A program made the translations under genes and the position numbers. Positions 305 to 64,000 of a stretch of DNA of 64,000 bases are shown piece by piece; position 1 is the first letter of the stretch; each line of letters starts with the position of its first letter. This DNA is from an uncultured Alphaproteobacteria bacterium. GTDB taxonomy: Bacteria; Pseudomonadota; Alphaproteobacteria; CAAHEQ01; UBA3637. The notes beneath the pieces were generated by a model, which saw only the letters and a list, made by a program, of their open reading frames with translations, was not told the DNA's origin and did no database searches. The DNA lies in assembly GCA_944392785.1 (NCBI GenBank), contig CALXXW010000013.1, forward strand, positions 182,201 to 246,200. The letters are read 5' to 3'.

Positions 305-2658
305 TTTCTTTGAAATGGTTGGAAAAGCATTTAGATACAACCGCATCTGTCTCGGAAATCGTCGAACGCTTGACGATGATCGGTTTAGAGGTCGAAGAAG
401 TCAAAGATCCATCGGCAGACTTAGCTCCCTTCATTATCGGTGAAATCAAAACCGTTATCCAACACCCAAATGCTGATCGATTAAAAGTTCTGACTGTTTG
501 GACCGGAACGGAAACACTGCAAATTGTTTGTGGCGCTCCAAATGTTCGTGTCGGGTTAAAGTCTATTTTGGCTCGTCCCGGAGATATCATTCCCAAGCTG
601 GGAACCAAGCTGGAAAAAGGGGTTATTCGCGGGGTTGAAAGTCAGGGCATGATGTGTGCGGAAGATGAATTGAATCTGGGAGAAGATCACACGGGCATTA
701 TTGAGCTTGAAACAGAGCTGCCTGCCGGCACACCAATAACGGATGTTATAAAAACCGATGTTATCTTGGATGTTAATGTCACACCTAATCGTCCGGACTG
801 TCTGGGCATTCGTGGAATCGCCCGAGATTTGGCCGCCACAGGGATTGGAACATTCATTCCCGAAAAACGGGAAAAATTAACAGATGCTTTCCCCTCCCCC
901 ATTCATGTTTCCATCACGGATAAGGCTTGTCATCACTTTGTCGGACGTTATATCCGCGGTGTTAAAAACGGCGAAAGCCCCACTTGGTTGAAAGAATTGT
1001 TATTATCCGTCGGCTTGCGCCCCATTTCGGCACTGGTCGATATTACAAATTACTTAAGCATAGGAGCTTGTCGTCCTCTCCATGTTTTTGATGCCGATAA
1101 AATTGTCGGAAATTTGGTTATTCGTTCGGCTCAAAATGGTGAAAAAATGATGGCTTTGGACGACAAAGAATACACTCTTTCCGAGGGTATGACTGTTATT
1201 GCCGACGATAACGGCGTTCAAAGTATCGCTGGTGTAATGGGCGGCACAGCAACCGCCGTGACGGCCGAAACGACTTGTATCTTTTTGGAATCGGCGTTTT
1301 TCACGCCGGAAAGCATCGCTCGAACGGGGCGCTTGCTCAACCTTGTATCCGATGCTCGCACACGCTTTGAGCACGGTGTGGATCCGGCCAGTTGCCGTTC
1401 GGGAAACGATCTGGCAACACAGTTGATTTTGGAACTGTGCGGCGGAGAGGCCTCGGCTCCTGTAGAAGCGGGTTCAGCACCCACAACACAACCGGAAATA
1501 ACTTTTGATTTTGGTTTGGTGGAAAAAATATGCGCTCTGTCCATTCCTCGGGAAGAAATGGTATCCATCCTGCAGGCGTTGGGTTTTGAGGTAGATCATC
1601 AACGTATTCGTGTCCCATCTTGGCGGGTCCATGATATAAAGCAACCTATTGATTTAGTGGAGGAAATTGTTCGAATTCATGGTCTTAACAATTTACCGGA
1701 AATGAAAATGAGATCGGAAACACTACCAACCGGCATGTTATTGCCTCATCAAAAACGGGAATCCATCGTCAGACGGACCTTGGCGGCTCGCGGTTTGAAC
1801 CAGGCCATTACATGGTCCTTTATGGATTCACGTTTAGCCCAGTATTTCGGTTCAAAAAATGTACGTATTGCCAATCCTATTTCCTCCGACTTGGATGAAA
1901 TGCGGCCCAGTTTAATCCCTAATTTATTGAGCGCCGTTAAGCGTAATCAAGATTATGGTATTAAGGATGTGCAATTATTTGAAGTCGGTCCCGAGTTCTA
2001 CTCGGCTATTCCCGGAGAACAGCGCATGGTCGCAGCCGGAGTTCGGGCCGGTTCTTGGACTCTGCGTCATTTCGCAGAGGCAACACGCCCAGTTGATGTG
2101 TTTGATGCCAAAGCTGATGCTTGGGATGCCTTATGCAGTATGAATGCCCCTCAAAATTTACAAGTCTTCCGAAATGCTCCGTCATGGTATCATCCGGGGC
2201 GTTCGGGCTCGTTCCAATTAGGGAAAAACATTGTCGCTGTTTTCGGTGAAATTCATCCCTCAATTTTAAAGGTTTATGACATAAAAACACCTGTTGTCGC
2301 TTTTGAGGTGTACATGGATGCTCTGCCCTTGCCTAAGCCCAAGGGAAAGACGATTAAGCCCTTAAAGCTTTCCAATTTGACACCTTTGACACGTGATTTT
2401 GCCTTTGTAATGGATAAATCTGTCGATGCGGCCAAAGTCATAGCGAGCATTCAAAATGTCAATCGAGACTTAATTAGCCATGTATCCGTTTTTGATGTGT
2501 ATGAAGGAGAACACCTACCGGAAGGCAAAAAACAGCTGGCTTTTCAAGTTGTCATCCAACCCGTTGATAAAACATTAACGGATAAGGAGATTGAGATTCT
2601 TTCAACACAAATCATCAATTTGGTGTCTCGCAACACAGGAGCAACTCTTAGAAGCTAA
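298..2658 (+). CDS. pheT: phenylalanine--tRNA ligase beta subunit
   Basis: 786-aa ORF directly after pheS. It has a tRNA-binding N-domain, B3/B4 and B5 regions and a C-terminal FDX-ACB-like domain. Confidence 0.9.
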
Positions 2659-12695: not shown

Positions 12696-14090
12696 ATGCT
12701 CTATTGGGGATTATTTTTATCTTTTGCCATATCTGTTCTGATTTATGCGTTTTATCCGTTCGGAGATAAGTTAAATGTCGAACGCCATCAAGCCGAAGCT
12801 TTAATCACAGCTTTTATCAATCAACACCAGGCCGCCAAAAATTATCTGGTACATGCGTTGCGGCTGCCGCCTCTCAACAACACCGGCATTGATGAAGGCT
12901 CCGAAGGTGTTGCCCTCTTTCCTCAAGAGCTGGATGATTTTATTCCGCCTTACATGGAAAGTGATCTATATCAGATTCAGGATAATAACGGAGAATTAAG
13001 AACGGCGTTGAATCCCGATCCGCAGAACAGCAACTATGTCGGAGGGGCTTTTTCCTCGGCTTTGATTTGTGTGAAACGCGATGACAGTAGCTTATCGCTC
13101 ATTCCGGATTACCACCTGACAAGTTGCCTAGACGGCTTGGCAGATCACCAATATATCATTACATACGGAGCTCGCCCCGAATGGTGGGACAATCAGACAT
13201 CCATCGAAATGAAAGGAACTTGGCGACATGCTGTTGCACGTATGACACATAATGCACCTAATTGCGGCACATTATTACATGATCCTAAAAACGGACAAAA
13301 AAACGGAGAACCCGTTTATTCTTTGGATAACGGGTATCGTATTTCGGTTGATATTGTCAACCCTCTGGTCACCCAAACACTTAAAAAAGCCGGTGTAAGC
13401 GGTGATTACATACATGACGATCTGATTGATTTATTCTTTTGCATTTCAGCCTATGGCGATCTTTATGTCCCGGGCGCTCTGTATCACTATGATGCAAACA
13501 GTAATACCCGAGAAGGATACAGTGAAACAGCCTCCCGTTGGACAAACTTGGGAACTGTTGGCGGAACATTATCGGCCCGTGTCGATAAACAGGGTTTACA
13601 ACCGACCTCCCGCCTAGATACGGGAATAACACTTAACCCCTATACAAACTATACCTTGACTCTGGTCATGCGCACAACGGATACACAAAACAACAAAACA
13701 TTAACCAGTGGTTTTCCAATCTTAACGACCGACAATCAGACGGATTTATACATTGCCGGACAGACAATTAACATGACCACGGCATCCTCTCGCCGAAACG
13801 ATATGGTGTCCATAACCTATGTCAATGACATAACAACGGGAGAAGGACGTCTCTATGTCAACGGGGAACCGGTTAAAACATTGACGGGAACAGAGCGAAC
13901 GGCTATCAGCGGGACTCTGTTCTTAGAGGCAACGAACACGCGCTTCTTCAACATCAAGTATTATGACACCGTTTTAGAAGAAGACTTTGTCTGGCAGAAT
14001 TATAAATGGGACAAACGCCGCTACAACATTCGCTTTAAAAATAAACGTAAAGTGGAGTATATTCACCGCAATCCCAATGACAAAGCTTAA
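12696..14090 (+). CDS. hypothetical membrane-anchored protein with C-terminal concanavalin-A/LamG-like lectin domain
   Basis: 464 aa. A 22-aa N-terminal hydrophobic segment is followed by an amphipathic, pilin-like helix. The C-terminal beta-rich region carries RLYVNGEPV and GTLFLEA motifs typical of LamG jelly-rolls. Confidence 0.6.
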   Translation: MLYWGLFLSFAISVLIYAFYPFGDKLNVERHQAEALITAFINQHQAAKNYLVHALRLPPLNNTGIDEGSEGVALFPQELDDFIPPYMESDLYQIQDNNGELRTALNPDPQNSNYVGGAFSSALICVKRDDSSLSLIPDYHLTSCLDGLADHQYIITYGARPEWWDNQTSIEMKGTWRHAVARMTHNAPNCGTLLHDPKNGQKNGEPVYSLDNGYRISVDIVNPLVTQTLKKAGVSGDYIHDDLIDLFFCISAYGDLYVPGALYHYDANSNTREGYSETASRWTNLGTVGGTLSARVDKQGLQPTSRLDTGITLNPYTNYTLTLVMRTTDTQNNKTLTSGFPILTTDNQTDLYIAGQTINMTTASSRRNDMVSITYVNDITTGEGRLYVNGEPVKTLTGTERTAISGTLFLEATNTRFFNIKYYDTVLEEDFVWQNYKWDKRRYNIRFKNKRKVEYIHRNPNDKA

Positions 14091-14149: not shown

Positions 14150-16111
14150 ATGATAAGAGATACAAATGAGCGCGGAGCAATCATGCTAGAGGTTATTGCC
14201 GTCTTGGCTTTAATTGGCGCAATGGGAACCCTGCTTTTTCGTCAAGTGTTGATGCGCAATCAAGAAGTCGACAATGTTAATATGGCAACCGAAGCACGTA
14301 TCATGAAGGAAAGTACTTTGGCCTATATTCAGGCTGATCGCGCTCTTTTACTTCAAAATACGACCTTAAATCCTCCTGACGGAAACGGGGGTTGTATCGT
14401 TCCCAACCAAGATGACGTTGCCGCCTTTATCCCGGACGGATATGTTGAGCTCAATTCGAGCGATCAATTCGAAGGCATTATAGATTACTACAACATCACG
14501 CTCTGTTCGTATAAGCCAACAGATGAAACGGAACCCGTTATGTATGGAATCATCGTTCCCAAAGCAGAACTCTTACCCTCGGAAATGAACCTAAAACGCG
14601 CTTCACGCGTGGCTGCTCTGATCGGATCGGGTGGTGGTGTTTGGCCCAGTCAAAACGAAGAACTCAGCGGAACGATGGGAGGCTGGCATTTACCGCCGGA
14701 TGGTCTGACTTATCCCGGCACTCCGACGTTTGTCGCTATTACGGGAATGGATATTTTTGTACCGGAACCGGAAAATTTACAGCAGTTAACAACGCTTAAA
14801 TTACAGCTGGATGATGATGCCAAGTTCACAAATTTACATGCCTCTGATTTCTTGTCCGTGGGCGCGGCAACCAATAATTGTTTTCGCAATGTGGGGACCG
14901 TCGATAAGCCCGAGTATGAAATCTTGCGCCCGGGGCAACGCAACAGCGATACAGGAGATATTTGTGATCCTCTCTTTTGGGTGGGAACGGTCGGAGCAAA
15001 CACAACCGAAGACCACTCAATACACGGACATGTCTATGCGAAACAAAACATGTATATCGGGCGAAAAAATCAAGCCAATATCCACGCTATTGCCTTAGAA
15101 AATGAAACGGCTAAAGGCGGACGCATTACCGTTTTTGATGATACAGGACGACAACGTTTGGTTATTGATGGCTCCGGCCGTCTGTTGGGCGGTATAGCCG
15201 CTAACACATCCGATATAGAAGATGACAGAAATGCCACTTTGATTCTAAAGCCCGGTAATTTACAGGATAACCTCAGTAAAGAATCCGCCAGTTTGACATT
15301 GCGCAGTTCAGATGAACAGGATGATTTGGAAATCAAAGACGGTCGCATTGTTGTGGCTCGTCAAACGCCCGATAAACTGGCCGAAAGTGCCACAACATCC
15401 TATCAACTGGATCCGGCCCATACATCGGTTGTCAACGAAATTCGGTTGGCTGCTCGAGGCGGTGCTCGTCTGAGCGATTTATTACCCAATTACATTTCTA
15501 AAACTATGGAAGCCATCACATCCAGCGGAACGGGTGCGTATTCCGAGCACACTCAAGCCGTCCCGACCTGTCCGAAAGGATATACGGCAGCCCTTATGGT
15601 CACACCGACACGTTGGGACACATCTCGTTTATCCGAGATTGATATTTCACATCAACGACGTTTAAATATCGATAATTTCTTTGTCAATGCTCCCGCAGAC
15701 GGAGGAACGGCTTATTTAAAGCGGCAGTCTGATGATAATAATGACCTGATAGATGAAGAAATCATCATCAAAAAAGAAGATAAGCGAGCCGATGACACAA
15801 CGCCCAAAATCAAAATGGAAAAAGCGCGCCTGGCTATTATGATTGATGAGGAAGATCCTCAAAACACGGCCGCTTTGGATACACAAAAGACCGGCTCTTC
15901 TTGGACCATTCGAATGGGTTATGTTGATGATAACAACCAATGGAGCGGCTCGGTGCAAGACACCATATCCGCCGTTGTTCAAACTTTCTGTGTCTATGAT
16001 CCGACCGCACATGAAGGAAATGCCAATCGCATTCCTTGTCCGGAACGTAAGACCGGTAGCCTTTGTCCCGCCGGCTGTCATGAAGATAACGGCATTTGCT
16101 ATAAGGATTAA
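14150..16111 (+). CDS. large type IV pilin-like protein (prepilin-type N-terminal cleavage/methylation motif)
   Basis: 653 aa with an AAGGAGA RBS. The leader MIRDTNERG is followed by AIMLEVIAVLALIGAMGTLLF (G at -1, E at +5). The C-terminus has a Cys-rich disulfide region. Confidence 0.6.
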   Translation: MIRDTNERGAIMLEVIAVLALIGAMGTLLFRQVLMRNQEVDNVNMATEARIMKESTLAYIQADRALLLQNTTLNPPDGNGGCIVPNQDDVAAFIPDGYVELNSSDQFEGIIDYYNITLCSYKPTDETEPVMYGIIVPKAELLPSEMNLKRASRVAALIGSGGGVWPSQNEELSGTMGGWHLPPDGLTYPGTPTFVAITGMDIFVPEPENLQQLTTLKLQLDDDAKFTNLHASDFLSVGAATNNCFRNVGTVDKPEYEILRPGQRNSDTGDICDPLFWVGTVGANTTEDHSIHGHVYAKQNMYIGRKNQANIHAIALENETAKGGRITVFDDTGRQRLVIDGSGRLLGGIAANTSDIEDDRNATLILKPGNLQDNLSKESASLTLRSSDEQDDLEIKDGRIVVARQTPDKLAESATTSYQLDPAHTSVVNEIRLAARGGARLSDLLPNYISKTMEAITSSGTGAYSEHTQAVPTCPKGYTAALMVTPTRWDTSRLSEIDISHQRRLNIDNFFVNAPADGGTAYLKRQSDDNNDLIDEEIIIKKEDKRADDTTPKIKMEKARLAIMIDEEDPQNTAALDTQKTGSSWTIRMGYVDDNNQWSGSVQDTISAVVQTFCVYDPTAHEGNANRIPCPERKTGSLCPAGCHEDNGICYKD

Positions 16112-39882: not shown

Positions 39883-40251
39883 GGTCAGACGGTTGGGTAA
39901 TCGCTGGTACATTATAATGGTGTATCGGAGGAAAGTCCGGGCTTCACGGGAACACGATACTGGATAACGTCCAGGCAGGGTGACCTGACGGAAAGCGTCA
40001 CAGAGAACATACCACTCAAGCATGCTTGAGAAAGGGTGAAAAGGCAGGGTAAGAGCCTACCGCGTCTCTGGCGACAGAGACGGCACGACAAACCCTATCG
40101 GAAGCAAGACCAAAAAAAGAGGGACAACAGATTGGTTGTAAAAGGAGTGTTCCTGCTCTGCCCTCAAGAGGTGGGTTGCTAGAGGTAGTCAGTAATGGCT
40201 ATCCCAGACGAATGATTACCAAGACAAAACCCGGCTTATAGACCGTCTGAC
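39883..40251 (+). ncRNA. rnpB: RNase P RNA, bacterial type A
   Basis: GGAGGAAAGTCCGGGCT (P4 5' strand), ACAGAACCCGGCTTA (P4 3' strand) and a terminal P1 helix GTCAGACGGT/ACCGTCTGAC. Confidence 0.9.
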
Positions 40252-40302
40252 ATTAATACAAAAACGCACATGCCCATAGTTTTTCAAACGGTTCTTAAAA
40301 GC

Positions 40303-56040: not shown

Positions 56041-57507
56041 TTAAATATGTATCAAACCACGGAAAAAGGCATACAGAGCCACAACGGCAATCAACAAAAT
56101 AACAGCCGCCAGCACTTTTTCCGAGCGAGACAACAATGGTCCCTCCATACCGTGTTTATGATTTTCCCATTGTGTCCACAGATAAATTGGTAGACCCAAA
56201 GCGATAAATACCACGGCCATCATCAAATAGGTAAGACCGGCGGCATACATTAACCACACCGCATATACACTGCCCAAAATGCCGGTTAAAACCGCCGAAA
56301 ATCGACTCAACCCCAACGTCATGGGAAATTCGTGATCTTCACAAATCTTCCACAGGTATAAGCAAGAGGTCAAATACGCCGGTAGCACCATAACTCCCGT
56401 AATTGATAGCATCGTATTCCAAGCATTATTCGAAAAATAAACCAATAACATGGCAAGTTGCATTAAAAGACTTGTCATCCAAAGAGAAACTTGAGGTGAT
56501 CCGGCTTTATTTTCACGCTCAAAAATTTCCGGGAACGAGCTCTTTTGAGCCATGGCATATGGCATTTCCGCCGTAATAATTGTCCATGATAACCAACTGG
56601 CTAAAATCGCAATAATCAACCCGGCATTCATCAACCACGCTCCCCATGGACCAACGATTTGCTCTAAAACACCGGCCGTGGAGGGATTCGGAATGGCTGC
56701 CAATTGAGGTTGAGTCATGTACCCAAAAGGCAAAACAGATAGTAAAATATAGATCCCCAAACAACCTAAAAACCCTAATATGGTTGCTTGACCGACCGCG
56801 GCTTGTGACTGAGCACGACCCGATAAAACGACCGCACCTTCAATGCCGATAAAGGACCAGAGCGTCACAAGCATCGTGCTTTTAATTTGTGTACCGACAT
56901 CACCTAAGTGTCTCAAGTGTTCACCCCAAAAATTCATATCGAATTTTGAGGCTTTAAAAACAAACGCAACAATAATAATGAAGATAATAAGGGGAACAAT
57001 TTTGGTGATAGTTGCGACCAAATTAATACGTATAGCTTCTTTGACACCACGTAGGACCAAAAAGTTAAAGAACCAGATTAACAAAGAGCCTCCCACAATA
57101 GAGGCTAAATTATTTCCTCCCGTAAAAGTGCCCGGAAAAAAATAATTGAGAGCGTCCATCGTAATAACGGCATATCCGACATTTCCAAAAATTTGACATA
57201 ACCAATAGCTCCAACCGATATTAAATCCTAGGTAATTGCCAAATCCGGCACGAGCATACAGATAAATACCCGATGTTAAATCTGGCTTAGCCAACGCCAA
57301 AATACGAAATGTATTAGCAATAAAATAAATACCCAACCCTGTGATAAGCCATGCTAAAATAACGGCTCCAGCTGATGCTGAAGCCGCCATATTTTGCGGT
57401 AACGAGAAGATTCCTCCGCCAATCATAGAGCTGATAACAACCCCGGCAAGACCTAAAACACCCAGCTTACCGGCTTTTGATATTTCTTTGTGTTGTTTTT
57501 TAAGCAT
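56041..57507 (-). CDS. ArcD/AaxC-family basic amino acid antiporter (arginine:agmatine or arginine:ornithine)
   Basis: 488 aa with 12-13 TM helices and the ArcD signature GGGIFSLPQNMAASA. Confidence 0.8.
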   Translation of the reverse strand: MLKKQHKEISKAGKLGVLGLAGVVISSMIGGGIFSLPQNMAASASAGAVILAWLITGLGIYFIANTFRILALAKPDLTSGIYLYARAGFGNYLGFNIGWSYWLCQIFGNVGYAVITMDALNYFFPGTFTGGNNLASIVGGSLLIWFFNFLVLRGVKEAIRINLVATITKIVPLIIFIIIVAFVFKASKFDMNFWGEHLRHLGDVGTQIKSTMLVTLWSFIGIEGAVVLSGRAQSQAAVGQATILGFLGCLGIYILLSVLPFGYMTQPQLAAIPNPSTAGVLEQIVGPWGAWLMNAGLIIAILASWLSWTIITAEMPYAMAQKSSFPEIFERENKAGSPQVSLWMTSLLMQLAMLLVYFSNNAWNTMLSITGVMVLPAYLTSCLYLWKICEDHEFPMTLGLSRFSAVLTGILGSVYAVWLMYAAGLTYLMMAVVFIALGLPIYLWTQWENHKHGMEGPLLSRSEKVLAAVILLIAVVALYAFFRGLIHI

Positions 57508-57574: not shown

Positions 57575-58162
57575 TTATTTTTTGACATTGACTGCCGGTG
57601 CATAATCAAAATTTAAAAATCCGAGCGCTGTCAATGAATACCCAAAAGCCTGTGTGATATTGACAAAATTATGATAAAATTGAAAATCGCTATGTTTCTC
57701 AACATGGCGAATATCCAGCTCATGATTCAATGATTTTGTCAACCACATTTCAGCATGTGCTTTTGCAATATCGTCATCGATAAAAGTATCAAAAAATTCA
57801 ACATACTCAGCAGCCCAACCGCCAATAAATTTACCTTTTTTATCCTTGCCCCACACAATGCCGACACCTGTGGCAATAGCTTTATGATCCGTGTTTTTAG
57901 CACCGTGACCGGCCATGATAACTTCCAAAACAGCACCATGTTTAAAATTCTTTTCAACCTGTTCTACCGGCACGATATTTCCAAACAACTCCGGTGGCAA
58001 GACCGATGTATACGGCACGATATTAAAATCTTGGATTTTGGCTTGCAATAACGCCGAATCATAGCAGAATGTTTCAAATGGTTGCGGTGGGATACCATCA
58101 TCTGATTGACCGGCTCCACCGGTATGAAAAGCAAGTGTGGGATATCTTGTTCCGACTGTCAT
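57575..58162 (-). CDS. pyruvoyl-dependent arginine decarboxylase (PdaD/AaxB family)
   Basis: 195 aa, the same length as Chlamydia AaxB. The predicted self-cleavage site is Thr52|Ser53 (PYT|SVLPP), matching the AaxB proenzyme. Confidence 0.7.
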
Positions 58163-59225: not shown

Positions 59226-60398
59226 TTAAGGGGAGGAAAACACCGGTTTTTCCTTGGGGACATCCGGTATTTTAGATGAGGAATCACCCGTTTTTTTGGA
59301 GCTCTTATCTTGTTTTGAAGTTGTAGATGATATCGTCGAAACAAGAGGTTCTGATTGCTTTTGCGACGCTGATTTGACCGCCACCGGTTGCTTTTGTTGT
59401 GCAACACTTCGGCTGAGGGGTTTTAAGCCTTTTCGAATCCGACGCCAGTTTTTAACATTCCATTGATGTTCTTTATAGGTTTCCGCAAAAACATGTCCTC
59501 CGGTTCCGTCTGCAACGAAATAAATGTCTTTTGTTTCCATCGGGTGCAAAACAGCTTGTAGCGATTTATATCCCGGGTTTGAAATCGGACCATCGGGTAA
59601 TCCGTAAATGACATAGGTATTATAGGGGTGTTGATACCGCAAATCCGCATATGTCAAACTTCTATTCAAATCTAAACGCCCGTTTGTCACGGCATAAATC
59701 ACCGTTGGATCAGACTGCAAGCGAATATTCTGTTCTAAGCGATTGATAAATACCGAAGCAATATGAGCACGTTCACGATCTAAAGACGTTTCCTTTTCAA
59801 CGATTGAAGCCATAACGACAGCCTCTTTCACATCACGAAAAGGCAGACCTTCGGCGCGGGTCGGCCACAGCTCTTCCAATGCTCGTCTCATAGCATTTTG
59901 CATACGCCGAATCATGGACTCTTTTGTGTCACCATAGGTGTAGTGATACGTATCCGGAAGCAATGTCCCATTTCGTGGAATGTGCTTCACTTCACCCTCC
60001 AGTCCCCTCATTCCATCCATTAAGGCCACTATCTGAGCAGATGTCAGCCCTTCAGGAACAACCAAACGTCGAACGACCGTATTTCCGCCGATCAAAATGT
60101 TCATAACCATTTTGGCGCTGGCGCCCCGTGGAAAAGAATACTCCCCAGCCTTCAATTTTTCAGCATTTCCGCTGGCACGCGTGCCTAAAACAAAAATGGA
60201 CGGACTGGCAATCACGCCTTCCTCATGCAACAGCGCAGCGACTTGTTTTAATCCTTTTCCCTTAGGAATGACCACTTCCTTACGCTCTGTCAAGGGGCCT
60301 TCGGCAACGAACTGATTATAGGTTGTAAAAACACTGCCGCCAATCAAAGACAGAACAAAAAATAGGATAAAGAAATAAATAAAGACACCGCGCCGCAT
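59226..60398 (-). CDS. mltG: endolytic murein transglycosylase MltG (YceG family) with disordered C-terminal tail
   Basis: N-terminal TM helix and a YceG domain. The last 70 aa are Ser/Lys/Gln-rich low complexity. Confidence 0.85.
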   Translation of the reverse strand: MRRGVFIYFFILFFVLSLIGGSVFTTYNQFVAEGPLTERKEVVIPKGKGLKQVAALLHEEGVIASPSIFVLGTRASGNAEKLKAGEYSFPRGASAKMVMNILIGGNTVVRRLVVPEGLTSAQIVALMDGMRGLEGEVKHIPRNGTLLPDTYHYTYGDTKESMIRRMQNAMRRALEELWPTRAEGLPFRDVKEAVVMASIVEKETSLDRERAHIASVFINRLEQNIRLQSDPTVIYAVTNGRLDLNRSLTYADLRYQHPYNTYVIYGLPDGPISNPGYKSLQAVLHPMETKDIYFVADGTGGHVFAETYKEHQWNVKNWRRIRKGLKPLSRSVAQQKQPVAVKSASQKQSEPLVSTISSTTSKQDKSSKKTGDSSSKIPDVPKEKPVFSSP

Positions 60399-60408
60399 GC
60401 TGAAACGC

Positions 60409-61659
60409 TTAGACTTTCTTGAAAATCAAGGTACCGTTAGTCCCGCCAAATCCGAAAGAGTTAGAGAGTGCCACACGAACTGTTTTTTCTTTTGCTACAT
60501 TTGGAACCAAGTCAAAGCCCTCTGTTCCCTCTTCTGGATTTTCCAGGTTAATGGTCGGAGGTAAAACGCCGGTATTGATTGCCATCAGAGAATAGATTGC
60601 CTCAACCGCCCCGGCAGCTCCCAATAAATGCCCGATAGCCGATTTTGTGGAAGACATTGATACCTTGGTATCACCGAACAAAGCCTTAACGGCATTAAAT
60701 TCAACCATATCGCCCAAAGGTGTAGAGGTTCCATGCGCGTTGATATAGTCCACATCTTCCGGATTTAAACCGGCAGCTTTTAAGGCACCTTTCATTGCGC
60801 GAAAGCCGCCATTACCACCCGGTGCCGTAATATGATGCGCATCACCCGTCATAGCATAGCCGACAACTTCACCATAGATTTTAGCACCGCGAGCTTTGGC
60901 ATGTTCATATTCTTCCAACACGACCACACCGGCTCCTTCCCCCATAACGAAACCGTCACGTCCTTTATCCCAAGGGCGAGAAGCATGCGTCGGATCATCA
61001 TTATAGGAGTGAGAAAGAGCCTTGGCTTGAGAAAATCCGGCAATACCCAAAGGACAGATAGCCGCTTCTGCTCCGCCGGCCACCATCACATCAGCCTCAT
61101 TATTTCGAATAATCCGTGCGGCATCTCCGATAGAGTGTGTGCCGGTTGCACAAGCTGTCACGATCGAGTGGTTAGGCCCCTTTAACCCATATTTAATAGA
61201 CACGTGCCCTGAGATTAAATTAACCAGAGAAGACGGGATAAAAAAAGGTGACAACCGACGCGGTCCTTGTTCATGGACCAAGATAGCACCTTGTTCGATT
61301 GTTTGTAATCCGCCGATTCCCGAGCTGATTAAGACACCGGTCCGCTCTTGTTCTTCTTCTGTCTGAGGGACAAAGCCAGAGTCTTCAATAGCATCTGTCG
61401 CAGCCGTTAATCCATAGAGGATGAACGGATCGACATGGCGTTGCTCTTTTGGAGACATAATTGAATCGGGCTGAAAAGCATCGGCTTCATCTCCCACAGG
61501 AATCTGACCGGCAATTTGGCACACAAAATTTGTCGTATCGAAAGTCTTAATTTTTGAAATTCCGGATTTCCCGGCCGTAATTTTTTCCCAGTTTTTTTGG
61601 ACACCTCGTCCCAGAGGCGTTAACATTCCCATACCGGTAATTACAACACGTCTAGTCAT
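60409..61659 (-). CDS. fabF: 3-oxoacyl-ACP synthase II
   Basis: 416 aa with the Cys-His-His triad context (ACATGTHSIGDA, HGTSTPLGD, GHLLGAAGA). Confidence 0.92.
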   Translation of the reverse strand: MTRRVVITGMGMLTPLGRGVQKNWEKITAGKSGISKIKTFDTTNFVCQIAGQIPVGDEADAFQPDSIMSPKEQRHVDPFILYGLTAATDAIEDSGFVPQTEEEQERTGVLISSGIGGLQTIEQGAILVHEQGPRRLSPFFIPSSLVNLISGHVSIKYGLKGPNHSIVTACATGTHSIGDAARIIRNNEADVMVAGGAEAAICPLGIAGFSQAKALSHSYNDDPTHASRPWDKGRDGFVMGEGAGVVVLEEYEHAKARGAKIYGEVVGYAMTGDAHHITAPGGNGGFRAMKGALKAAGLNPEDVDYINAHGTSTPLGDMVEFNAVKALFGDTKVSMSSTKSAIGHLLGAAGAVEAIYSLMAINTGVLPPTINLENPEEGTEGFDLVPNVAKEKTVRVALSNSFGFGGTNGTLIFKKV

Positions 61660-61759: not shown

Positions 61760-61993
61760 TTAAACTTGCTTTTCAATAAAGTCAATTGCATCTTTTACCG
61801 TACGAATTTTTTCGGCGGCGTCGTCTGGGATAGAGCAGCCGAATTCTTCTTCGAAAGCCATAACCAACTCGACTGTATCCAAACTGTCGGCACCCAGATC
61901 ATCGATAAAGCTAGATGTTTCTGTCACTTTAGCTTCATCCACTCCCAAATGTTCAACAACAATTTTCTTTACGCGTTCTGCAATATTACTCAT
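61760..61993 (-). CDS. acpP: acyl carrier protein
   Basis: 77 aa with the phosphopantetheine site [14 protein letters not shown]. Confidence 0.95.
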
Positions 61994-62121: not shown

Positions 62122-62859
62122 TTAAATCATTACCATACCACCGTTCACATGGATAGTTTGACCGGTGATATAAGCGGCCTCATCGCTGGCCAAAAAGACG
62201 ACGGCATTCGCGATATCCTCGGCTGAGCCCAAGCGCGCCATAGGAATTTTTTTCAGCAATGCTGCCTTAGCATCTTCCGGCAAAACATCCGTCATTGGTG
62301 TTTTGATAAATCCCGGAGCCACGCAGTTAACCGTAATTCCTCGGCTGGCTAATTCTTGTCCCATGCATTTAGACATGGCAATTAAAGCGCCTTTTGAAGC
62401 GGAATAGTTTGCTTGACCGGCATTTCCCATGACACCGACAACGGAAGCCATTCCGATGATGCGACCAAAGCGACGTTTCATCATTCCCGGCATAACGGCT
62501 CGAGCCAAACGGAAACCGGCCGTCAAGTTGATATCCAAGACTTGTTGCCATTGTTCATCTGTCATGCGCATGGACAAGCCATCTTTTGTGATACCGGCAT
62601 TATTGACCAAGATATCAATTTTACCCATATCCGCCTCAGCCTGTTTCACCAAGTTTTTTAAACTTTCTGCATCAGTCAAGTTTGCCGAATAGACGAAGAC
62701 CCGTTCTCCCAACTCGGCCTTAAATGCATTCAATGTATCCATATTCATATCTGTCAAAGCCAGCGTTGCTCCCTGTGCGTGCAACTTTTTAGCGATCTGA
62801 CGACCGATTCCACCGGTTGCACCCGTCACTAACGCTGTTTTTCCTGTAAAATCTAACAT
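62122..62859 (-). CDS. fabG: 3-oxoacyl-ACP reductase
   Basis: SDR with TGATGGIG and the YSASK active site. Confidence 0.92.
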   Translation of the reverse strand: MLDFTGKTALVTGATGGIGRQIAKKLHAQGATLALTDMNMDTLNAFKAELGERVFVYSANLTDAESLKNLVKQAEADMGKIDILVNNAGITKDGLSMRMTDEQWQQVLDINLTAGFRLARAVMPGMMKRRFGRIIGMASVVGVMGNAGQANYSASKGALIAMSKCMGQELASRGITVNCVAPGFIKTPMTDVLPEDAKAALLKKIPMARLGSAEDIANAVVFLASDEAAYITGQTIHVNGGMVMI

Positions 62860-63407
62860 CTTTTCTCCTTTTATTATAGATAAGAGGTTTTTTTTATAAC
62901 ACCCCTTTAGGTAAAAATCAACCTCTTTTTGAATTTGTCATAAAAATGTCGTGTTTATGATGACAGAGATTGATGACACAGATACATATCCAACCTTAAC
63001 AAGCCTTTTCAAAGGGTGAGAACGCCTGGCCAGCTTAACGCAGAGTATCCGGGCCAAGTCTGGGGGTGGGAAGACTTAGGAACTAATATCCTCTGGCGAC
63101 TGACAGATTCCTTTCTCTTCTGCTTTTATCTCCCCATAGAGCTTATCTGACTGGCGCATAGGTTTTGTGGGTTATTTTGAGGAATAGAGAGCAAGACAAG
63201 ATACAAGCGTTATGGTTTCTTGTTTCCCAAATAGCCTTCACGGGACCCAGGTTGCCTCCCGTCTTCTGTGACTAACGCGCAGCAGATCCTATAGGTTATA
63301 CTCTGTGCGGTGTGCGCAACCGCCGGCCTGCTGCAGCTGTTTTATTTGACAGATCGGGCGTTAAAGGGGGATAAAGCCCCCCTTTAAGCCCGACCAGAGC
63401 CCCGGGG

Positions 63408-64000
63408 TTAGGAGCATTTCTTTGTCCTGGCATCCCATCTCCCATGACACGATTTGCACTTCTCTTGGGTATTTAAACTGCTGGAACTTAAACTTGTCGG
63501 ACATCTATAACAATAGCTTCCATTCATATACCGTGGTGTGCCACTCTTATCACACTTGGCACATTCGGCCTCCGTCGCTTCATAGCCATATGAAGTGCTG
63601 CAGCTGCGGCAAGAGCCATCAGAACTCAAAAGTCCATCAGGACAATATCCTGGTAGAATACAATAACCGTTTCTCATCTCGCGTGGGGTGCTGCTCTTAT
63701 CACACTTGGAACATTCGGCTTCTGTCGCTGAAACGCCAGAATAATAGCTGCAGCTGTAGCACCCGCCAGAATCACTCAAAAATCCATCAGGACAATAGCC
63801 TGGTATAATACAAAACCCGTTTCTCATCTCGCGATTCAAACACTTGGCACATTCGGCCGCGGTCGCTGAAGGGCTAGATGAATCGCTGCAGCCCCAGCAA
63901 GCGCCAGAGGTATCCTGGAACTGATTCGCTCCACAGTTAATTAACCCACAATAGTCACCAAACATTTTGCGGGGAGTGCTACTGGCATCACACTGGGCAC
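63408..64000 (-). CDS. secreted-type cysteine-rich tandem-repeat protein, 5' partial (continues beyond the window end)
   Basis: At least three ~45-aa repeats (ATEAEC-KCDKS-TPREMRNGYC-PGYCPDG-C-SCS). The frame remains open and repeat-like (QCDASSTPRK) up to base 64000. Confidence 0.55.
   Translation of the reverse strand, partial: AQCDASSTPRKMFGDYCGLINCGANQFQDTSGACWGCSDSSSPSATAAECAKCLNREMRNGFCIIPGYCPDGFLSDSGGCYSCSYYSGVSATEAECSKCDKSSTPREMRNGYCILPGYCPDGLLSSDGSCRSCSTSYGYEATEAECAKCDKSGTPRYMNGSYCYRCPTSLSSSSLNTQEKCKSCHGRWDARTKKCS

What the first reader, a model, noticed from the sequence alone, without database searches (positions are those of the whole stretch)
62860..64000. Cys-rich tandem-repeat protein and a 550-bp ORF-free spacer where fabD is expected
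Upstream of fabG one expects fabD. Instead there is a 548-bp region with no ORF of 60 aa or more and no RNA motif I can recognise, then a minus-strand gene made of ~45-aa repeats with eight or more cysteines each (ATEAECxKCDKSxTPREMRNGYCxxPGYCPDGxLSxDGxCxSCS). Its frame stays open and repeat-like to the last base of the window, so the protein is larger than what is visible. The disulfide-rich repeat architecture is eukaryote-like (EGF or granulin-style), suggesting a secreted adhesin or toxin-like product.
Basis: seen in the sequence. Interest (0 to 1): 0.55.

Follow-up and report, generated by a model that had tools for sequence, protein, structure and literature searches.

The report
Cysteine-repeat pilin gene beside fabG
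The cysteine-rich gene is the tail end of a large pilus-type surface protein carrying a repeat not yet in any curated family, from an uncultured gut alphaproteobacterium, and the empty 548 bases next to it look like ordinary junction DNA with no trace of fabD.

Summary
The minus-strand frame is open from 63408 to the last base of the window. It holds tandem 150-nt (50-aa) cysteine repeats. The 548-nt gap has no ORF of 60 aa or more and no Rfam match. One detail is wrong: each unit has 6 cysteines, not 8 or more.

Contigs from related strains and 32 homologues show the whole protein. It starts with a prepilin-type leader (GRSMVEML, Glu at +5) and a head related to type IVb pilins (profile against TcpA, E 1.6e-8). 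An EGF-like motif follows, then a variable number of 34- or 50-aa CxxC repeats and a cap. The repeat matches no Pfam, NCBIfam or PDB entry. It is best read as a modular type IV pilin with a new module, probably a strain-variable adhesin displayed on a pilus.

The gap has three parts:
- the pilin gene's own 3' hairpin and a strain-variable flank
- about 250 nt of species-specific sequence with no detectable signal
- a fabG promoter conserved across the clade

fabD left this position in the whole clade. The eight closest species lack it here, while 65 more distant ones keep fabD-fabG.

The parts
63408..64000 (-). 3' part (196 codons plus the TAA stop at 63408..63410) of a modular type IV pilin-like gene. 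It holds part of one unit, two 6-Cys units (46 and 50 aa) and a 56-aa, 7-Cys C-terminal cap. The gene runs off the end of the window.
   Evidence: Translation. Unit dissection. Identical to L003 over 2000 nt of the window's end, and L003 shows 341 aa of this protein. AlphaFold2 model of these 196 aa: pLDDT 92.7, pTM 0.73.
63532..63833 (-). Tandem 150-nt (50-aa) repeat inside the gene. The unit is ATEAEC-xx-C...C-x5-C...C-xx-C.
   Evidence: Tandem Repeats Finder: period 150, 2.0 copies, 80% matches, score 401. Unit table.
63341..63407 (-). 3' flank that travels with the pilin gene. It contains a 19-bp hairpin with one bulge at 63352..63395 and has no U-tract. It is probably a terminator or a 3'-end stabiliser.
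   Evidence: The same 67 nt (87-90% identical) follow the paralogous copies at unrelated loci L007 and L009. Hairpin free energy -32.4 kcal/mol, z -6.0. The stem is invariant in 5 copies and changes fall only in the loop and bulge. The terminator scan found no canonical site.
63215..63340 (-). Distal spacer, GC about 0.55. Between strains it diverges as fast as the pilin gene, so it belongs to the variable segment.
   Evidence: Window vs L001 shows 22 differences across 63215..63407, against 5 across 62860..63214. Region table. An MFE helix predicted here is broken by three uncompensated changes in L001.
62961..63214 (.). Middle spacer, 254 nt, GC 0.46. No function was detected. It is probably junction DNA left by the rearrangement that separated fabD from fabG.
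   Evidence: No Rfam hit. No relic of FabD or any neighbouring protein. No copy elsewhere in the window. No match in 80 related loci, plasmids, phages or a metagenome 20-mer scan. Folding z-scores +0.9 and +1.0. Strain divergence is 1-2%, about the third-codon-position rate.
62860..62960 (-). fabG promoter and leader, GC 0.27. It contains an upstream direct repeat CGACAtttttaTGACAAAT (62933..62951), a -35 TTGATT (62916..62921), a 17-nt spacer, an extended -10 TGTTATAAA (62893..62901) and a Shine-Dalgarno AAGGAG (62865..62870).
   Evidence: This block is the only part of the gap that aligns with the fabG upstream regions of the eight closest species. The promoter assignment is by consensus only. 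The tool's stricter scan reported none.
62122..62859 (-). fabG, the first gene of fabG-acpP-fabF-mltG. It serves as the context anchor.
   Evidence: Pfam adh_short_C2 E 1.3e-69. Neighbours are listed.

Best explanation
The finding joins two unrelated things.

1. The cysteine-rich ORF is the C-terminal part of a modular type IV pilin. The full protein has these parts in order:
- a class III (prepilin) leader, ...ESG|RSMVEMLGVLAIMGVLS, with Gly at -1 and Glu at +5
- an alpha-1 helix of about 50 residues and a small TcpA-like head with two conserved Cys
- a linker and a 4-Cys EGF-like motif
- an array of 34-aa (4 Cys) and 50-aa (6 Cys) units built on two strict CxxC pairs
- a 7-Cys cap

Shown: the pilin module, the architecture, the novelty of the repeat, and the differences in repeat number and sequence between strains.

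Inferred: the pilin module inserts the protein into a type IV filament, most likely at the tip as CofB/TcpB and other modular pilins do. The cysteine-stapled repeats then form a rigid stalk that acts as a variable adhesin or surface antigen. Variation probably arises by recombination within the repeats and with paralogous copies.

2. The 548-nt gap is not a gene. It consists of:
- the pilin gene's 3' hairpin and variable flank (63215..63407)
- about 250 nt of species-specific DNA with no detectable function
- the fabG promoter and ribosome-binding site (62860..62960)

fabD is absent because the fabD-fabG junction was broken in the ancestor of this clade.
For: Extension of the gene:
- L001 carries 774 aa to the contig edge, and L003 is identical to the window.
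- Full-length paralogues of 459, 556 and 581 aa all start with GRSMVEML.

Pilin module:
- A profile of 26 N-terminal modules hits TcpA at E 1.6e-8, covering alpha-1 and part of the head. It then hits FimA, PilA, CofA, geopilin and PAK pilin.
- The AlphaFold2 model of P0003 has a helix at residues 13-63 followed by a small sheet.
- The nine best Foldseek PDB hits are all type IVb pilins, with probability 0.90-1.0.
- TIGR02532 passes its cutoff in the relative P0036.
- G-1, E+5 and the two head Cys are invariant in the family alignment.

Repeat module:
- It is nevertheless modelled with confidence, pLDDT 92.7.
- It occurs in 143 clusters among 1.84 billion representatives.
- About 40 of the 136 newly found clusters have the pilin leader and about 60 have classical signal-peptide-like N-termini. 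This fits an extracellular module.

Variability:
- Over the last 104 codons, window vs L001 gives dS 0.225 and dN/dS 0.78, with every Cys kept.
- The flanking genes differ by only 0.3-0.7%.

The gap.

fabD: it lies directly upstream of fabG in 65 loci, but in none of the 8 closest. Each of those has a different upstream neighbour.

The modular-pilin concept and the definition of a class III signal peptide come from PMC8179133.
Against: - No prepilin peptidase or pilus-assembly gene lies in the 64-kb window or next to any family member examined.
- The residue after the predicted cleavage site is Arg, which is unusual for type IV pilins.
- Pfam N_methyl reaches only 11.7-13.5 bits against a cutoff of 21.2, and P0003 itself does not reach TIGR02532.
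- The Foldseek E-values for the pilin hits are modest (3e-3 at best).
- The N-terminus of the window's own copy is not seen. It is inferred from L001 and from paralogues.
- Adhesion, a tip location and the cysteine chemistry are untested.
- For the gap, strains differ too little to detect selection, so a species-specific small RNA cannot be excluded.
Confidence: 0.62

Rival explanations
1. The leader and the hydrophobic helix serve only as a membrane anchor, or make the protein a pseudopilin-like substrate of a type II secretion system. The protein would then be a periplasmic or cell-bound cysteine-rich protein that is never built into a pilus.
For: - No pilus genes lie nearby.
- Arg sits at +1.
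- Sequence-model scores for the methylation motif are below threshold.
- The same repeat also occurs behind ordinary signal peptides, so the module does not need a pilus.
Against: - The similarity to TcpA extends past the hydrophobic helix into the head.
- Gly-1, Glu+5 and the two head Cys are invariant.
- The predicted fold matches type IVb pilins.
- Pilin genes are often unlinked to their machinery (general knowledge).
Confidence: 0.22
2. The gap encodes a new small RNA or a long regulatory 5' leader of fabG.
For: - The middle and distal parts of the gap have higher GC (0.46-0.55) than most short intergenic regions here. That is similar to the region holding RNase P RNA.
- The whole gap folds somewhat better than shuffled sequence (z -1.8 and -2.5).
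Against: - The fold signal comes from the terminal hairpin. The middle part has z +0.9 and +1.0.
- There is no Rfam hit at E up to 1.
- The sequence is absent from species whose FabG is 93% identical.
- A predicted helix is broken without compensation in another strain.
- The conserved promoter-like block lies within about 60 nt of the ATG.
Confidence: 0.12
3. The gap is the decayed remnant of fabD or of another gene.
For: fabD occupies exactly this position in 65 related loci. The GC content is close to that of coding sequence.
Against: - tblastn with three FabD proteins at E up to 10 finds nothing in the gap.
- A FabD HMM run with filters off gives only negative scores.
- blastx against 8440 ORFs from related loci plus all family proteins finds only the shared hairpin.
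- All 8 closest species also lack fabD here, so any relic would be old and erased.
Confidence: 0.04
4. The gene is a eukaryote-derived EGF-like or granulin-like secreted toxin acquired by horizontal transfer.
For: - The protein has a high Cys content.
- A weak EGF_2/Teneurin-EGF motif lies upstream of the repeats (18 bits, below threshold).
- The noise-level Foldseek list is populated by eukaryotic Cys-rich receptors.
Against: - No significant match to EGF, granulin, furin-like or TNFR models or structures.
- The N-terminus is a bacterial pilin.
- The family members that carry a source name are from Alphaproteobacteria MAGs.
- No toxin domain is present.
Confidence: 0.02

Closest known systems
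Modular type IV pilins (S. sanguinis PilB and PilC; the general class described in PMC8179133)
   Same: A small N-terminal pilin module with a class III signal peptide is fused through a linker to a bulky, unrelated C-terminal module. The family reuses one pilin module with different C-terminal modules. The paper notes that many such modules have no database signature yet.
   Different: The module here is an array of CxxC repeats that has not been described. The host is a diderm alphaproteobacterium. The +1 residue is Arg. No link to pilus machinery has been shown.
Type IVb pilins: the major pilins TcpA and CofA, and the large minor pilins TcpB and CofB
   Same: The best sequence-profile hit and the best structural hits of the N-terminal module are TcpA and CofA. 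From the literature (PMC8179133 discussion), CofB is a pilin module plus extra beta-rich domains, and its trimer is predicted to be exposed on the pilus.
   Different: The C-terminal domains share no similarity with those proteins. No tcp- or cof-like operon lies around the gene.
IncI plasmid R64 PilV shufflon adhesin (from my own knowledge, not tested here)
   Same: It is a type IVb minor pilin whose C-terminal segment varies and sets binding specificity.
   Different: In R64 the variation comes from Rci-mediated DNA inversion of cassettes. Here no shufflon repeats were seen. A resolvase gene lies next to one paralogue (L007), but the inverted repeats found there are weak.
CxxC-rich variant surface proteins of protists (Giardia VSPs) and furin-like or TNFR-type cysteine repeats (from my own knowledge)
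   Same: Arrays of short units dominated by CxxC motifs sit on a variable surface protein.
   Different: No sequence or fold match was found. The resemblance is in composition only.

Membership tests
Type IV pilin superfamily (class III signal peptide proteins) | A hydrophilic leader ending in Gly or Ala, then about 21 mostly hydrophobic residues with Glu at +5 (definition from PMC8179133) | tested here: met
   The leader reads ...ESG|RSMVEMLGVLAIMGVLSIGAVAG. G-1 and E+5 are invariant in 26 diverse members and align to residues 2 onward of mature TcpA, FimA and PilA. This was seen in homologues and in the near-complete orthologue L001, not in the window itself, which is cut. The +1 residue is Arg, which is atypical.
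Type IV pilin superfamily (class III signal peptide proteins) | Curated N-terminal methylation and cleavage motif models (Pfam PF07963, NCBIfam TIGR02532) | tested here: inconclusive
   PF07963 scores 11.7-13.5 bits against a cutoff of 21.2 in P0001, P0003, P0005 and P0017. TIGR02532 scores 17.8 against a cutoff of 16.3 in the relative P0036, but gives no hit in P0003 or P0005.
Type IV pilin superfamily (class III signal peptide proteins) | An alpha-1 helix of about 50 residues protruding from a small beta-sheet head, usually with a C-terminal disulfide | tested here: met
   The AlphaFold2 model has a helix at residues 13-63 and then 4-5 strands. The top 9 Foldseek hits are type IVb pilins, with target-normalised TM-scores of 0.36-0.47. 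Two head Cys are invariant. This is a prediction, not an experiment.
Type IV pilin superfamily (class III signal peptide proteins) | Processing by a prepilin peptidase and assembly by a type IV filament machinery | not testable with these tools
   No such genes lie in the window or in the flanks of 5 family loci. The rest of the genome could not be reached.
Modular pilins | A pilin module followed by an additional module unrelated to pilus biology | tested here: met
   The pilin module (about 150 aa) is followed by 300 to more than 600 aa of Cys repeats. Paralogues carry the same pilin module with a different, non-repeat C-terminal domain.
fabD-fabG-acpP-fabF operon | fabD lies immediately upstream of fabG | tested here: not met
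   fabD is absent from the window. It is present upstream of fabG in 65 related loci and absent in the 8 closest.
Known structured RNA families (Rfam 15) | A covariance-model match in 62860..63407 | tested here: not met
   0 matches at E up to 1.

The most novel reading that the evidence does not exclude
The CxxC repeat array would be a new kind of metal-stapled or disulfide-stapled stalk displayed on type IVb-like pili. The scattered paralogues share the leader, the ribosome-binding region and the 3' hairpin. Together they would form a cassette repertoire that recombines to vary the adhesin or antigen of a gut commensal, a bacterial counterpart of protist CxxC variant surface proteins.
Probability: 0.2. 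Interest if true: 0.65.

Novelty: new variant of a known kind. Interest (0 to 1): 0.42.

Why it matters
Modular pilins are a recognised way for bacteria to put binding modules on pili, but many of the modules are uncatalogued. This case defines one such module. It is a confidently modelled repeat of 34 or 50 aa with no curated family and no solved relative. It is confined to about 143 sequence clusters; the few that carry a source name come from uncultured animal-gut Alphaproteobacteria. It also diverges between strains far faster than the rest of the genome. It is a candidate host-interaction or phage-receptor determinant in a poorly known gut lineage. It would also be a useful new Pfam-type domain. 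The empty gap and the missing fabD are explained as a clade-wide rearrangement and carry little interest.

Tried and rejected
- Rfam scan of the gap: nothing.
- fabD relic searches: tblastn with three FabD proteins and a FabD HMM with filters off. Nothing found.
- blastx of the gap against 8440 ORFs from related loci plus all family proteins: only the shared hairpin.
- A copy of the gap elsewhere in the window: none.
- The gap against related loci, plasmids and phages: no match.
- A 20-mer from the gap in JGI metagenomes gave one chance hit with no further similarity. IMG/VR gave none.
- Promoter and terminator consensus scan: no sites at the tool's stringency.
- Small ORFs in the gap: only one starts with ATG (27 aa), and it has no ribosome-binding site.
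- Pfam, NCBIfam, PHROGs and PDB sequence searches of the repeat protein: nothing significant.
- Repeat-unit profile against PDB sequences: best E 1.3.
- Invertase-type switch next to paralogue L007: only weak inverted repeats.
- The 2026 preprint on cysteine-rich repeats and gene transfer deals with a fungal protein. It gives no sequence I could link to this unit.
- Literature searches for this family: nothing.
- By eye, the non-repeat C-terminal domain of P0012-type paralogues looks C-type-lectin-like. Pfam finds nothing for P0012, so I do not claim it.

Full report
**Layout.** On the minus strand the end of the window reads as follows:
- cysteine-rich gene, open from base 64000 and stopping with TAA at 63408..63410
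- a 548-nt gap (62860..63407)
- fabG (62122..62859), acpP (61760..61993), fabF (60409..61659) and mltG/yceG (59226..60398)
- tRNA-Phe

**Checking the observation.**
- The frame is open to the window edge and gives 196 residues with 24 Cys.
- Tandem Repeats Finder reports a 150-nt period over 63532..63833.
- Cut at the ECxxC anchors, the visible part is one partial unit, units of 46 and 50 aa with 6 Cys each, and a 56-aa cap with 7 Cys. The rest of the description holds.
- The gap has no ORF above 49 aa and no Rfam match at E up to 1.
- The same Rfam tool finds RNase P RNA and five tRNAs elsewhere in the window.

**Extending the gene.** An exact look-up of FabG returned 11 contigs of the same species.
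- L003 is identical to the window and shows 341 aa of the protein.
- L001 comes from another strain (GCA_949297705.1). It shows 774 aa and begins just after the leader region.
- Every assembly breaks inside this gene.
- A search with the L001 protein found 32 homologues, the named ones from Alphaproteobacteria MAGs.
- The full-length close copies are 459, 556 and 581 aa. All begin MKKHIPT(N/T)ESGRSMVEMLGVLAIMGVLSIGAVAGYRW.

**The N-terminal module is a type IV pilin.**
- In an alignment of 26 diverse N-termini, four positions are invariant: the Gly, the Glu five residues later, and two Cys in the head.
- A profile of this alignment hits V. cholerae TcpA at E 1.6e-8. The match covers profile positions 11-122 and TcpA residues 2-137. 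It therefore spans the hydrophobic helix and part of the head (FaIsVdGLtqaqCktL against FFTLTVSDIPQGVCDKV).
- Weaker hits follow to FimA, PilA, CofA, geopilin and PAK pilin.
- The AlphaFold2 model of P0003 (pLDDT 81.5) has a helix at residues 13-63 followed by a small sheet.
- The nine best Foldseek PDB matches are TcpA, the ETEC type IVb pilin and S. typhi PilS.
- The curated motif models are borderline. Pfam N_methyl is below its cutoff. TIGR02532 passes only in the relative P0036.
- These features match the published definition of a class III signal peptide and of modular pilins (PMC8179133).
- Two caveats remain. The +1 residue is Arg, and no prepilin peptidase or assembly gene lies in the window or beside other family members.

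**The repeat module.** After the head come a linker and a 4-Cys EGF-like motif (EGF_2 at 18 bits, below its cutoff). The array follows.
- Short units are 34 aa with CxxC-x14-CxxC.
- Long units are 50-51 aa and carry an extra Cys pair. They come in two subtypes: REMRNGYCIIPGYCPEGFL, and RVLLENGYCALESCGANQFQ or KMFGDYCGLINCGANQFQ.
- A cap closes the array.
- The repeats have no Pfam, NCBIfam, PHROGs or PDB sequence match.
- A profile of 64 diverse units (consensus xxxxECAKCxxRxMxxxxCxLxxCxxxxFxxxxGxCxxC) finds nothing in PDB sequences. The best E is 1.3.
- The window's own 196 aa are modelled with pLDDT 92.7 as a stack of beta-hairpins and short helices.
- Against 1.84 billion representative proteins, the fragment matches 143 clusters at E up to 1e-3.
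- Of the 136 newly found clusters, about 40 carry the GRSMVEML-type leader and about 60 have ordinary signal-peptide-like N-termini. The repeat is therefore an extracellular module used on several carriers.
- I could not decide whether the CxxC pairs form disulfides or Cys4-Zn sites, because no model coordinates are returned.

**Variability.**
- Between the window and L001, fabG, acpP, fabF and mltG differ by 0.3-0.7%.
- The 3' end of the pilin gene and the first 190 nt or so after it differ by 8-12%.
- Over the last 104 codons dS is 0.225 and dN/dS is 0.78, with every Cys conserved.
- Repeat number and order differ between strains.
- Paralogous copies sit at unrelated loci. One lies in an island with resolvase, integrase, AbiEii and Fic genes.
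- The paralogues share about 35 nt upstream of the start codon and the 67-nt 3' flank with the fabG-linked copy.
- This pattern fits import or exchange of divergent alleles. It does not prove it.

**The gap, in four stretches.**
1. 63341..63407 belongs to the pilin gene.
   - It follows the paralogues too.
   - It holds a hairpin at 63352..63395 with free energy -32.4 kcal/mol.
   - It has no U-tract.
2. 63215..63340 is as variable between strains as the pilin gene. A predicted helix there is broken without compensation in L001.
3. 62961..63214 has no positive explanation.
   - It shows no protein relic, no repeat and no homologue in any searched collection.
   - Its folding z-scores are +0.9 and +1.0.
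   - Its strain divergence is about neutral.
4. 62860..62960 is AT-rich.
   - It is the only stretch that aligns with the fabG upstream regions of the eight closest species.
   - It holds a direct repeat (TGAC...TGACAAAT), a -35 TTG, an extended -10 TGnTATAA and the Shine-Dalgarno sequence.
   - A long fabG leader is therefore unlikely. This rests on consensus only.

**fabD.** A scan of one genome per species with FabG returned 80 loci.
- fabD lies directly upstream of fabG in 65 of them. All of those have FabG identity of 77% or less.
- fabD is absent upstream of fabG in all eight closest loci (80-93% identity). Six of them offer at least 4.4 kb of upstream sequence.
- Each of the eight has a different upstream neighbour.
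- The junction was therefore broken in the clade's ancestor and has stayed a rearrangement hotspot.
- The location of fabD in this genome could not be determined.

**Verdict.**
- The gene is a real, intact, fast-evolving modular type IV pilin with a repeat module that no curated family covers.
- The adhesin role is inferred from that architecture.
- The gap is most likely ordinary junction DNA flanked by a terminator-like hairpin and a promoter.
- The EGF/granulin, toxin and ncRNA readings are not supported.

Noticed in passing
window 14150..16108 (+) and 12696..14087 (+): A second large pilin-like ORF (653 aa) begins MIRDTNERGAIMLEVIAVLALIGAMGTLLF, with Gly at -1 and Glu at +5. It has no Pfam or PDB match and only a weak NCBIfam ComGG hit (E 0.02). 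A 464-aa ORF with an N-terminal membrane helix and no Pfam match precedes it. Together they could be a minor-pilin pair.
   Followed up: partly
window 62933..62951 and the aligned positions in L010-L016: A direct repeat, (T/C)GAC-N6-7-TGACAAAT, lies just upstream of the fabG -35 element and is conserved across the clade. It is a candidate operator for a regulator of fatty-acid synthesis.
   Followed up: no
L012 5091..5618: In a species with 84% FabG identity, the gene just upstream of fabG is a different small secreted cysteine-rich protein (175 aa, with a signal peptide). The fabG upstream slot seems to collect such genes.
   Followed up: no
L009 about 1000..1160 (upstream of the P0002 copy): Two copies of a near-perfect palindrome, TGTCACAAAAAAA(C/G)GATCCTTTTTTTGTGACA, lie about 130 nt apart just 5' of a paralogous pilin gene. 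They may be a regulatory or recombination site.
   Followed up: no
L007 9037..9636 and the surrounding locus: The paralogue P0001 sits in a mobile-looking island with a divergently oriented serine recombinase (Resolvase), AbiEii, Fic, a DNA methylase and a phage integrase. Only weak inverted repeats flank the intergenic region.
   Followed up: partly
proteins P0012-P0016, P0018, P0019, P0021, P0023, P0024 and P0027: These paralogues carry the same pilin module but have a non-repeat C-terminal domain of about 150 aa instead of the Cys repeats. By eye it looks lectin-like, but Pfam finds nothing for P0012.
   Followed up: partly
window 39885..40254 (+): RNase P RNA (class A, 302.7 bits) lies in what a plain ORF map shows as an empty 491-nt gap. 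This served as the positive control for the Rfam scan.
   Followed up: yes
window 57575..58162 (-) and 56041..57507 (-): A pyruvoyl-dependent arginine decarboxylase lies next to an amino-acid permease. This is a possible acid-resistance pair, consistent with a gut habitat (Pfam labels).
   Followed up: no
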